64,000 bases of DNA from Escherichia coli (lineage in GTDB: Bacteria; Pseudomonadota; Gammaproteobacteria; Enterobacterales; Enterobacteriaceae), in assembly GCF_001677475.2 (NCBI RefSeq), contig NZ_CP015229.1. One strand, 5' to 3'. A model generated the notes under the pieces. It worked only from the letters and a program-made list of their open reading frames with translations, was not told where the DNA came from and ran no database searches. Of this stretch, positions 21,124 through 21,624 are shown one piece after another (the stretch's first letter is position 1; each line of letters begins with the position of its first letter). The translations under genes were made by a program, and so were the position numbers.

Positions 21124-21353
21124 AATTAATTAATGTCATCAGATCCGAAAATAACGAGAATATTTCAGTCTCTCATCCTGTTGCGCTCCTGTCATGTGCA
21201 TTGCTTCATATAATCACTGGCGCAAGGAACGCGCAGGGGGCGGCCAATCGCCGCCGCCCCCTGCACCCCCGGGCTCTGGCGAACAAAATCGCCGCTGCGC
21301 GGTGCCCTCGGCTTATCCCTTGCGGCTACCGGGTCGGGCGCGAGGTAACATAT

Positions 21354-21364
21354 ATGGACGCTCC
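21354..21364. repeat. 11-bp inverted repeat ATGGACGCTCC, candidate subterminal IR at right end of the IS
   Basis: Exact reverse complement of 22718-22728; a third, direct copy lies at 22651-22660. Confidence 0.5.
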
Positions 21365-21624
21365 CGGAATGCAATGCTTTCTTCAGTTATGTAATAAAAC
21401 GGGTAGGTGCAGCCATATATCCGGTTTCTGATGGGATTTTTATCCCGAACCATGATGAAATCCGCCAGGCAGGTACCAATCATCCTCTGCGGGCTAACTT
21501 GCCCTTGTTACCTCTCGGTGTATCCTGCCTGCGGTCTTACCTGTTTTGCCATCTTCTGAAGTCACCTGCACCTACCAGGACGTTAACTTTTTTTCAGCAC
21601 CTCGTCAGATTGACTGACCTTGTG

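What the first reader, a model, noticed from the sequence alone, without database searches (positions are those of the whole stretch)
21348..21624. Candidate guide (seek/bridge-like) RNA in the non-coding arm downstream of the transposase
There is a roughly 275-nt non-coding arm between the transposase stop (21625) and the 11-bp repeat at 21354-21364. It contains several short hairpins, for example gggatttttatccc at 21432-21445 and gtcagattgac at 21605-21615. In IS1111-type members of this family the 3' arm encodes a structured RNA that base-pairs target and donor DNA; in IS110-type members the equivalent RNA is in the 5' arm, which here would be 22650-22735 and beyond. Whether this copy encodes such an RNA is inference only.
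Basis: inference. Interest (0 to 1): 0.7.

Follow-up and report, generated by a model that had tools for sequence, protein, structure and literature searches.

The report
ISEc81 guide (seek/bridge) RNA gene
The non-coding tail of this E. coli insertion sequence (ISEc81, IS1111 group) does encode the structured guide RNA that such elements use to pick their insertion site, but this was already catalogued in the 2024 bridge-RNA work, so it is a well-supported ordinary case.

Summary
A 273-274 nt arm lies between the transposase stop codon (21625-21627, minus strand) and the right end of a 1385-bp insertion sequence at about 21351-22735.

The element is ISEc81 of ISfinder (transposase 337/341 identical), from the IS1111 group. 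This copy carries a 1-bp frameshift in the transposase gene.

The arm encodes, on the transposase-sense strand, an RNA of about 175 nt (21402-21576). The evidence is:
- The secondary structure is conserved, with compensatory changes in 25 of 31 pairs across 72 relatives.
- A covariance model built from 11 close relatives hits the ISEc11 region shown experimentally to supply the seekRNA, and hits the window only once.
- One loop strand, GAGGUAACA (21506-21514), is complementary to the DNA just right of the insertion point.
- The opposite loop strand carries GGAUG, identical to the top strand across the insertion point.
- Both loop strands change with the target in relatives. The opposite-sense controls show no signal.
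- Two junction segments match the element's own ends.

Not shown here: expression, transposase binding or activity.

Durrant et al. (2024) already list ISEc81 with a right-end bridge RNA. Novelty is nil and interest is low.

The parts
21351..22735 (-). ISEc81 copy (1385 bp; intact copies are 1386 bp). Limits are +/-1 nt because of the shared AT. They are written in the IS1111 convention: 7-nt left extension TAATGAG and 3-nt right extension ATA.
   Evidence: Empty-site comparison with K-12. Identical junctions in 9 other copies. Transposase 99% identical to ISEc81.
21625..22649 (-). Transposase gene, frameshifted in this copy by a 1-bp deletion between 21867 and 21868, just after the SSGG motif.
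   Evidence: ORFs of 311 and 95 aa in different frames. Alignment with strain GF43. The other 9 copies are 1386 bp. Pfam PF01548 + PF02371. NF033542 at 359 bits.
21351..21624 (-). 3' non-coding arm (right end, RE).
21402..21576 (-). Predicted long guide RNA (seekRNA/bridge RNA), from the 5' strand to the 3' strand of closing helix P0. The true RNA ends are not known.
   Evidence: MFE fold. P0 found at the same place in three groups, with compensatory differences. Size fits the 145-170 nt long seekRNAs of PMC11187229.
21401..21548 (-). Match to covariance model R1 (full length, 158.6 bits). It is the only hit in the window. WIN is a training sequence of R1, so the score itself is by construction.
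21566..21576 (-). P0 5' strand, GGUAGGUGCAG.
21535..21553 (-). Nearly invariant single-stranded motif GAUGGCAAAACAGGUAAGA. ACAGGUAAGACC is also present in ISEc11. A scaffold or protein-binding role is inferred.
21524..21534 (-). P1 5' strand, CCGCAGGCAGG. It pairs with part of 21462-21477.
   Evidence: 99% of cells paired, 5 pairs with compensatory changes.
21506..21514 (-). Target guide T (5' strand of the internal loop), GAGGUAACA. It is complementary to the top strand TGTTACCTC, positions +1 to +9 right of the insertion point (window 21342-21350).
   Evidence: Co-varies with the right flank: 6.9 vs 3.6 nt in 10 close IS types and 7.2 vs 3.3 nt in 41 elements.
21491..21504 (-). P3 hairpin, GGGCaaguuaGCCC, capping the target-binding loop.
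21478..21490 (-). Target guide B (3' strand of the internal loop), GCAGAGGAUGAUU. The core GGAUG (21481-21485) is identical to the top strand GGA|TG across the insertion point. There is a private C at 21489.
   Evidence: (6.4 vs 3.3 nt; opposite-sense control flat).
21462..21477 (-). P2 3' strand plus P1 3' strand, GGUACCUGCCUGGCGG.
   Evidence: P2 is 100% paired and all 3 pairs co-vary.
21450..21463 (-). Left-end (donor) guide, GGAUUUCAUCAUGG: junction J1/4 plus the start of P4. It is complementary to the left-end top strand TAATGAGAT, with one mismatch and one G-U.
   Evidence: The effect is modest (7.0 vs 6.4 of 9).
21432..21447 (-). P5 terminal hairpin, CGGGAUAAAAAUCCCA.
21419..21426 (-). 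P4 3' strand, AACCGGAU. It pairs with AUCAUGGUU at 21448-21456.
   Evidence: 97.7% paired.
21413..21419 (-). Right-end (donor) guide, junction J4/0, UAUAUGG. It is identical to the top strand at the right terminus, CCA|TATATG.
   Evidence: 6/6 identity in 39 of 46 distinct elements, which carry 17 different hexamers.
21402..21412 (-). P0 3' strand, CUGCACCUACC.
21369..21374 (-). TTGCAT, the predicted -35 of the promoter completed only in the circular form. A 16-nt spacer is followed by TATAAT, made of TA from the RE and TAAT from the LE.
   Evidence: Read from the junction string built. TTG is conserved at this distance in relatives. Junction promoters are documented for ISEc11 (PMC11187229).
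21354..21364 (-). Right subterminal inverted repeat, GGAGCGTCCAT.
22718..22728 (-). Left subterminal inverted repeat, ATGGACGCTCC.
22651..22660 (-). GGAGCGUCCA, containing the Shine-Dalgarno AGGAG. In an RNA that reads through the left end it pairs with the left inverted repeat.
   Evidence: Fold dG -30.2 kcal/mol, z = -4.2.
21342..21350 (+). Right half of the target (GAGGTAACA on the + strand; TGTTACCTC in transposase orientation), bound by guide T.
22736..22742 (+). Left half of the target (TCCCTGT on the + strand; ACAGGGA in transposase orientation).

Best explanation
The 3' arm of this ISEc81 copy carries the gene for an IS1111-type guide RNA (seekRNA or bridge RNA), read on the same strand as the transposase.

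**Structure (shown by comparison).** The RNA folds into a multiloop closed by helix P0.
- One arm (P1-P2-internal loop-P3) is the target-binding loop.
- Its 5' strand, GAGGUAACA, pairs with the top strand immediately right of the insertion point.
- Its 3' strand, (A)GGAUG, pairs with the bottom strand across the insertion point.
- The segments on either side of the second arm (P4-P5) match the element's own ends. J1/4 is complementary to the left-end top strand. J4/0 is identical to the right-end top strand.

**Mechanism (inferred from the published IS1111/IS110 mechanism).**
- The RNA is made with the transposase mRNA from a promoter completed when the element circularises.
- It binds the DEDD transposase and brings the circle junction together with the target GGGA^TGTTACCTC.
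- That target lies at the centre of a ~280-bp E. coli repeat.
- Insertion follows in one orientation and without target duplication.

**This copy.** It cannot make full-length transposase, so its RNA could act only with transposase supplied from another copy.
For: **Element type**
- 11-bp subterminal inverted repeats; arms of 273 and 87 nt.
- PF01548 + PF02371 and NF033542 'IS110 family RNA-guided transposase'.
- 99% identity to the ISEc81 transposase.

**Site-specific insertion**
- All 10 E. coli copies examined, at three or more loci and in both orientations, sit at the same position of the same repeat.
- The K-12 empty site shows no duplication.

**Structure**
- MAFFT-only alignment of 11 relatives (65-88% transposase identity): 89% of cells paired against at most 49% when the partner is slid. 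P1 is 99% paired, and P2 is 100% paired with 3/3 pairs co-varying.
- 72-sequence alignment: 25/31 pairs with compensatory changes, and 468 doubly changed cells against 127 in shuffles.

**Homology to a validated RNA**
- Model R1 hits ISEc11 at L109:1699-1845 (65 bits, E 2e-13), inside the 1127-1397 fragment that restores transposition in PMC11187229.
- In that alignment the ISEc11 loops read CAGUAUUUU and GUGAAAAUA. These are the complement and the identity of the published target GTGAAAATACTG.
- All 72 hits are on the tnp-sense strand and all but two lie downstream of tnp; the window has one hit.

**Guide-target covariation**
- L5 against the right flank: cognate 6.9 vs non-cognate 3.6 nt, 0/100,000 permutations.
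- In 41 distant elements: T 7.2 vs 3.3 and B 6.4 vs 3.3, while the opposite-sense controls are 3.3 vs 3.2.

**Donor**
- The J4/0 hexamer equals the right-end terminus in 39/46 elements.

**Literature**
- Durrant et al. list 'ISEc81 / RE / IS1111'.
Against: - No transcript, protein binding or transposition was or could be tested here.
- No sigma-70-like promoter was found on the minus strand inside the integrated element, so expression from this chromosomal copy is uncertain.
- The B guide of this element is short: 5 contiguous nt, or 6 on the CAAGGA target variant.
- The left-end guide signal is weak (7.0 vs 6.4 of 9), because left ends are conserved.
- The permutation tests ignore phylogenetic relatedness.
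- Alignment A6 is fitted to the model and so leans towards its structure.
- The short seekRNA, which lacks the donor domain, sufficed for ISEc11 transposition in PMC11187229. The donor-pairing role of J1/4 and J4/0 is therefore not established.
- Rfam 15 gave no relevant match, consistent with no model of this RNA class being in that release.
- This copy's transposase gene is frameshifted.
Confidence: 0.9

Rival explanations
1. The arm is conserved only as DNA (transposase-binding subterminal sequence) or as a passive 3' untranslated region. No functional guide RNA exists.
For: - The right inverted repeat and the predicted -35 of the junction promoter do lie in the arm.
- No internal promoter was found.
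Against: - Conservation follows base pairing, not sequence: 25/31 pairs carry compensatory changes.
- The variable loop strands track each element's flanking DNA in a strand-specific way, while the opposite-sense controls are flat.
- The homologous ISEc11 region is an RNA that co-purifies with the transposase and acts in trans (PMC11187229).
Confidence: 0.04
2. The guide RNA is encoded in the 5' arm (22650-22735), as in IS110-type elements.
For: A few IS1111 relatives have upstream non-coding regions (PMC11187229).
Against: - The 5' arm is only 86-87 nt.
- It gives no R1 hit.
- It contains no segment matching the target beyond a 6-mer.
- It folds as one stem that pairs the inverted repeat with the ribosome-binding site.
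- Durrant et al. list RE, not LE, for ISEc81.
Confidence: 0.01
3. The arm encodes a small protein on one or the other strand. Gene callers place antisense ORFs of 76-123 aa in the arms of some relatives.
For: - Mechanical ORFs of 50-56 aa overlap the arm.
- Antisense ORFs were called in L091, L106 and L107.
Against: - The ORFs differ in length and position between relatives.
- The arm alignment has 1- and 2-nt indels.
- The pattern of change is compensatory base pairing.
Confidence: 0.01
4. The RNA gene is present, but this particular copy is an inert relic. With a frameshifted transposase and no promoter unless it circularises, its RNA is not made or has no partner.
For: - The 1-bp deletion in tnp is found only in this copy among 10.
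- No minus-strand promoter inside the element.
- No second copy in the 64-kb window.
Against: - The RNA region differs from 9 other copies by a single loop nucleotide.
- Genomes carry up to 4 copies, so transposase could come in trans.
- Read-through from the dusC side is possible.
Confidence: 0.4

Closest known systems
ISEc81 (ISfinder; IS110 family, IS1111 group)
   Same: - Transposase 337/341 identical.
- Same family features.
- Durrant et al. 2024 list it with the bridge RNA in the right end.
   Different: - This copy has a 1-bp frameshift in tnp and one private loop SNP at 21489.
- I could not compare with the ISfinder DNA entry itself.
ISEc11 seekRNA (Siddiquee et al. 2024, PMC11187229)
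   Same: - Same location and strand.
- Same scaffold: ACAGGUAAGACC, P1-P3, GCCGGAUAUA...GCUGCA.CCUACCCGU, detected by model R1 at 65 bits.
- Same guide logic: the top-strand match is 5' of the bottom-strand match, and the two overlap in the target.
   Different: - The transposases belong to different clusters in the Durrant et al. table. I did not compare the two transposases directly.
- Different target (GTGAAAATACTG) and different inverted repeats.
- The ISEc11 RNA is validated by experiment; this one is not.
IS621 bridge RNA (IS110 group; Durrant et al. 2024, PMC11208160; Hiraizumi et al. 2024)
   Same: One RNA carries segments for both target and donor, next to a DEDD recombinase. Each DNA is read on both strands by two loop strands.
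   Different: - The IS621 RNA is in the left end, with two simple internal loops.
- Here the RNA is in the right end, and the donor-matching segments sit in a multiloop on either side of a hairpin.
- The order of the strand matches is reversed.
- The subterminal repeats are long (11 bp against 2-3 bp).
ISYen1 / ISEch3 (closest other named relatives, 69% and 65% transposase identity)
   Same: Same ends (TAATGAR-ATGGACGCTCC...GGAGCGTCCAT-ATA) and the same RNA scaffold.
   Different: Different L5 guide and different flanking target, which is natural retargeting.

Membership tests
IS1111 group of the IS110 family | DEDD (RuvC-like) N-terminal domain plus C-terminal Transposase_20 domain | tested here: met
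   PF01548 (E 1e-14) and PF02371 (E 4e-24). NF033542 scores 359 bits against a cut-off of 140.
IS1111 group of the IS110 family | Subterminal inverted repeats of 7-17 bp with short terminal extensions | tested here: met
   11-bp ATGGACGCTCC / GGAGCGTCCAT, with a 7-nt extension on the left and a 3-nt extension on the right.
IS1111 group of the IS110 family | Longer non-coding region downstream of tnp | tested here: met
   273-274 nt downstream against 86-87 nt upstream.
IS1111 group of the IS110 family | GL-P----S(T)G motif in the C-terminal domain | tested here: met
   The sequence WLGLTPKEHSSGG is read in the alignment.
IS1111 group of the IS110 family | Site- and orientation-specific insertion without target duplication | tested here: met
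   10 copies sit at the same point of the same repeat. The K-12 empty site GGGATGTT shows a simple 1386-bp insertion.
IS1111 group of the IS110 family | Circular intermediate with a junction promoter | not testable with these tools
   Only the sequence prediction is available: TTGCAT, 16 nt, TATAAT across the joined ends.
IS1111-type seekRNA / bridge RNA | Encoded in the 3' non-coding region on the transposase-sense strand | tested here: met
   The only R1 hit in the window is at 21401-21548 on the minus strand. All 72 hits in relatives are on the tnp-sense strand and all but two lie downstream of tnp.
IS1111-type seekRNA / bridge RNA | Conserved secondary structure supported by covariation | tested here: met
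   with sliding and shuffle controls.
IS1111-type seekRNA / bridge RNA | Homology to an experimentally validated member | tested here: met
   ISEc11 non-coding region, L109:1699-1845, 65.2 bits, E 2e-13, full-length model match.
IS1111-type seekRNA / bridge RNA | [quoted passage not shown] | tested here: met
   GAGGUAACA (9 nt, complementary to +1..+9) lies 5' of GGAUG (identical to -3..+2). They overlap at TG.
IS1111-type seekRNA / bridge RNA | Guide segments change with the target in related elements (programmability) | tested here: met
   Cognate against non-cognate: 6.9 vs 3.6; 7.2 vs 3.3 and 6.4 vs 3.3, with flat opposite-sense controls.
IS1111-type seekRNA / bridge RNA | Segments matching the donor (element ends) | tested here: inconclusive
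   The right-end match is strong: 39/46 elements with 6/6 identity over 17 different hexamers. The left-end match is weak (7.0 vs 6.4 of 9). A functional role is not established, because the short seekRNA without this domain sufficed for ISEc11 (PMC11187229).
IS1111-type seekRNA / bridge RNA | RNA is expressed, binds the transposase and is required for transposition | not testable with these tools
   Needs RNA-seq, RNP purification and transposition assays.
IS110-type (left-end) bridge RNA | Structured RNA of about 150-190 nt in the 5' non-coding end | tested here: not met
   The 5' arm is 86-87 nt, gives no R1 hit, and folds as a single stem over the ribosome-binding site.
Any Rfam 15 family | Match reaching the family's gathering score | tested here: not met
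   In the region searched (20900-23100) the best match, which lies in the flank outside the element, is AgvB at 22.9 bits against a gathering score of 56. The search returned no seekRNA or bridge RNA family.

The most novel reading that the evidence does not exclude
The part of the long RNA outside the short seekRNA (P4-P5 with its two flanking junctions) may be a donor-recognition module. In this reading J4/0 reads the bottom strand of the right terminus and J1/4 reads the top strand of the left-end extension, using the same '5' strand pairs with top, 3' strand pairs with bottom' rule as the target loop.

Siddiquee et al. left the role of the long seekRNA open, and this would give it a defined job. 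It would also mean that frameshifted copies such as this one, and orphan RNA genes such as the one on plasmid NZ_JBSQBR010000002.1, could still direct or compete for transposase made elsewhere.
Probability: 0.5. Interest if true: 0.35.

Novelty: already known. Interest (0 to 1): 0.15.

Why it matters
It matters little beyond annotation.
- It shows that the yohP-dusC intergenic insertion carried by 112 of the 5,426 complete E. coli genomes searched is ISEc81, with a recognisable guide RNA gene. This RNA gene is not among the annotated features shown for the records examined, although newer ones name the protein an 'RNA-guided transposase'.
- The mapped guide segments, and the natural retargeting seen among ISEc81, ISYen1, ISEch3 and their relatives, give a ready set of cognate guide/target pairs for anyone engineering IS1111-type recombinases.
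- The right-end hexamer rule (39/46 exact) is a simple, testable statement about donor recognition in this group.

Tried and rejected
- **Rfam 15**, run at a permissive E-value over 20900-23100, gave nothing relevant.
- **AUAUAUGG as a donor guide.** I first read AUAUAUGG (21412-21419) as complementary to the right end CCATATAT, and RNAalifold also paired it with the terminus. Comparison with ISEc11 and 46 other elements showed the rule is identity to the top strand, not complementarity. The apparent complementarity comes from ATATAT being a palindrome.
- **AGAUGG as a left-end guide.** I considered the conserved AGAUGG / UGAUGG upstream of the model, because of a 6-nt identity with the left inverted repeat. 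It does not co-vary and is better treated as scaffold.
- **L5 plus the P3 G's as a match to the left flank.** This gives good matches in palindromic targets (L104, L099) but fails for this element and in the 41-element control.
- **Genome-contig scan.** Closer relatives had to be fetched one protein at a time.
- **ISShdy1** (L108) was fetched in the hope that it was ISEc11. It is not, and it gives no R1 hit.
- **Name of the target repeat.** The curated K-12 record NC_000913 has no repeat annotated between yohP and dusC.
- **RNA ends.** The numeric ends of the ISEc11 RNAs are only in figures, so exact 5' and 3' ends could not be transferred.

Full report
**1. What is at the coordinates**

The window is E. 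coli chromosome, in the yohP-dusC intergenic region.
- A transposase ORF runs on the minus strand from ATG 22649 to a stop codon at 21625-21627.
- Alignment with the empty site of K-12 reads ...GAGGTAACAT|CCCTGT... on the + strand.
- This bounds a 1385-bp insertion at 21351-22735. The limits are +/-1 nt because an AT dinucleotide is shared at the junction.
- The 3' arm is 273-274 nt and the 5' arm is 86-87 nt.
Its partner is at 22718-22728.

**2. Which element it is**

- The intact protein from strain GF43 has Pfam DEDD_Tnp_IS110 and Transposase_20 domains.
- It matches NCBIfam NF033542, 'IS110 family RNA-guided transposase', at 359 bits.
- It carries the GL-P----SG motif.
- It is 337/341 identical to the ISEc81 transposase of ISfinder. 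That sequence was taken from the supplement of PMC11187229.
- The element occurs in 179 of 5426 complete E. coli genomes, at 1-4 copies each.
- Ten copies at three or more loci, in both orientations, all sit at the same point of the same repeat. In transposase orientation...GCGT[T/C]TTACA[G/A]GGA ^ [T/C]GTTACCTCGCGCCC.
- The repeat is about 280 bp, is unannotated, and has a median of 4 places per genome.
- The window copy alone has a 1-bp deletion in tnp, between 21867 and 21868. It also has one private SNP in the arm, at 21489.

**3. Conserved RNA structure**

Relatives at 65-88% transposase identity come from Serratia, Pectobacterium, Yersinia (ISYen1), Dickeya (ISEch3), Citrobacter, Jejubacter, Acerihabitans, Pantoea and two metagenomic contigs.
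- Nearly all keep the same ends (the Citrobacter copies vary in the repeat) but sit in different flanking DNA.
- Their 3' arms align into a constant scaffold interrupted by variable blocks.

RNAalifold and a structure I curated from it give these helices:
- P1, 11 bp.
- P2, 3 bp.
- An internal loop.
- The P3 hairpin.
- A second arm, P4-P5.

On the MAFFT-only alignment:
- 89% of cells pair, against at most 49% when the partners are slid.
- P1 is 99% paired, with 5 compensatory pairs.
- P2 is 100% paired, with all 3 pairs co-varying.

A closing helix P0 (GGUAGGUGCAG / CUGCACCUACC in the window) recurs at the same position with compensatory differences. It is AGGUUGC/GCAACCU in ISEc11 and GAUUGCA/UGCAAUC in distant relatives.

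**4. Homology to a validated seekRNA**

A covariance model (R1: 150 positions, 31 pairs) was built from the 11 close relatives. Its hits:
- The window, once only, at 21401-21548 on the minus strand (158.6 bits).
- 70 places in 46-54%-identity relatives from many Proteobacteria. Every hit is on the tnp-sense strand, and all but two lie downstream of tnp.
- The ISEc11 non-coding region at L109:1699-1845 (65 bits, E 2e-13).

The ISEc11 stretch lies inside the 1127-1397 fragment that Siddiquee et al. showed supplies the seekRNA in trans (PMC11187229).

In the model-guided alignment, the ISEc11 loop strands read GAACAGUAUUUU and GCCGUGAAAAUA. They contain the complement and the identity of the published target GTGAAAATACTG. 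The loop assignment is thus anchored to an experiment.

On the 72-sequence alignment, 25 of 31 pairs show compensatory changes. The caveat is that this alignment is fitted to the model.

**5. Target guides**

In the window RNA:
- The 5' loop strand contains GAGGUAACA (21506-21514). It is complementary to TGTTACCTC, positions +1 to +9 right of the insertion point.
- The 3' loop strand contains GGAUG (21481-21485). It is identical to the top strand GGA|TG across the insertion point.
- The two matches overlap in the target, and the top-strand match is the 5' one. This is the arrangement described for IS1111 seekRNAs.

Across relatives:

| Test | Set | Cognate | Non-cognate | Permutations reaching observed |
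|---|---|---|---|---|
| 5' strand vs right flank, longest Watson-Crick run | 10 close IS types | 6.9 nt | 3.6 nt | 0 of 100,000 |
| T relation | 41 distinct distant elements | 7.2 nt | 3.3 nt | 0 of 20,000 |
| B relation | same 41 elements | 6.4 nt | 3.3 nt | 0 of 20,000 |
| T, opposite sense (control) | same 41 elements | 3.3 nt | 3.2 nt | flat |
| B, opposite sense (control) | same 41 elements | 3.2 nt | 3.2 nt | flat |

These permutations do not correct for shared ancestry. The strand-specific controls and the many different guide/target pairs make a phylogenetic artefact unlikely.

**6. Donor segments**

- The segment 3' of P4 (UAUAUGG, 21413-21419) is identical to the top strand at the right terminus (CCA|TATATG).
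- In 39 of 46 distinct elements the hexamer is identical, and 17 different hexamers occur.
- The segment 5' of P4 (GGAUUUCAUCAUGG, 21450-21463) is complementary to the left-end extension TAATGAGAT, with one mismatch and one G-U.
- Its covariation is present but modest (7.0 vs 6.4 of 9), because left ends are conserved.
- This fits the remark of Durrant et al. that IS1111 donor-binding nucleotides sit in a multiloop.
- The function is inferred only. The short seekRNA without this domain was sufficient for ISEc11.

**7. Expression**

- No sigma-70-like promoter and no terminator-like site were found on the minus strand of the arm.
- Joining the ends would create TTGCAT, 16 nt, TATAAT across the junction (string built). 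This matches the junction promoters known for this group.
- In the 5' arm, the left inverted repeat pairs with GGAGCGUCCA, which holds the Shine-Dalgarno sequence (dG -30.2, z -4.2).
- That stem would mask translation in read-through transcripts. This is inference.

**8. Rivals**

- A DNA-only or passive-UTR reading does not explain the compensatory changes or the strand-specific guide-flank relations.
- A 5'-arm RNA is excluded by size, by the absence of a model hit and by the published listing.
- Small ORFs in the arm are not conserved.
- That this copy is itself inert is quite possible (about 0.4), because its transposase gene is frameshifted.

**9. Comparison and novelty**

- The element is ISEc81.
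- The RNA is a member of the IS1111-type seekRNA/bridge RNA class.
- Durrant et al. already list 'ISEc81 / RE / IS1111' in their supplementary table.
These are details of a known system, so novelty is 'already known' and interest is low.

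Noticed in passing
window 21867-21868 and 21489: This ISEc81 copy is the only one of 10 compared that has a 1-bp deletion frameshifting tnp just after the SSGG motif. It also has a private C (the others have T) in loop L3 of the RNA.
   Followed up: yes
L110:1677-1825 (plasmid NZ_JBSQBR010000002.1, about 27060-27208): An orphan guide-RNA gene. It is a full-length R1 hit (143 bits) with only about 100 bp of the tnp 3' end left and nothing annotated, next to IS3 and Tn3 fragments and a type VI secretion locus.
   Followed up: partly
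window 22651-22660 with 22718-22728: In the 5' untranslated region the left inverted repeat pairs with a third repeat copy that contains the Shine-Dalgarno AGGAG (10-bp stem, z = -4.2). This probably blocks translation of transcripts entering from outside the element.
   Followed up: partly
window 21351-21374 joined to 22729-22735: Joining the ends would assemble a promoter, TTGCAT-16 nt-TATAAT, with the -10 hexamer split across the junction. TTG is conserved at this distance in relatives.
   Followed up: partly
window about 21164-21350 and 22736-22832: The insertion target is the centre of an unannotated intergenic repeat of about 280 bp, with a palindromic core GGGCGCG...CGCGCCC. It has a median of 4 places per E. 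coli genome, and the curated K-12 record gives it no name.
   Followed up: partly
L008 (E. coli strain 2D, NZ_CP059003.1 3012332-3014217): An ISEc81 copy is flanked by dusC on one side and aqpZ on the other. This suggests a rearrangement between two copies or two target repeats.
   Followed up: no
L010 (NZ_CP076706.1) and L009: In some strains ISEc81 sits between yohP and dusC in the opposite orientation, in a variant repeat (CTTACAAGGA | CGTTACC). The first base right of the insertion point varies (T/C/G) among copies and relatives, while the left junction is constant.
   Followed up: partly
L082, L030, L077: These distant loci each carry two R1 hits, so they hold tandem or solo guide-RNA genes near one transposase gene.
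   Followed up: no
window 19380-20906: mdtQ appears as one long ORF here (508 aa from an upstream TTG). It is a frameshifted pseudogene in K-12.
   Followed up: no
window 21146-21206 (+): Weak Rfam match to AgvB (22.9 bits against a gathering score of 56, E 0.19), just downstream of yohP. It is most likely chance.
   Followed up: no
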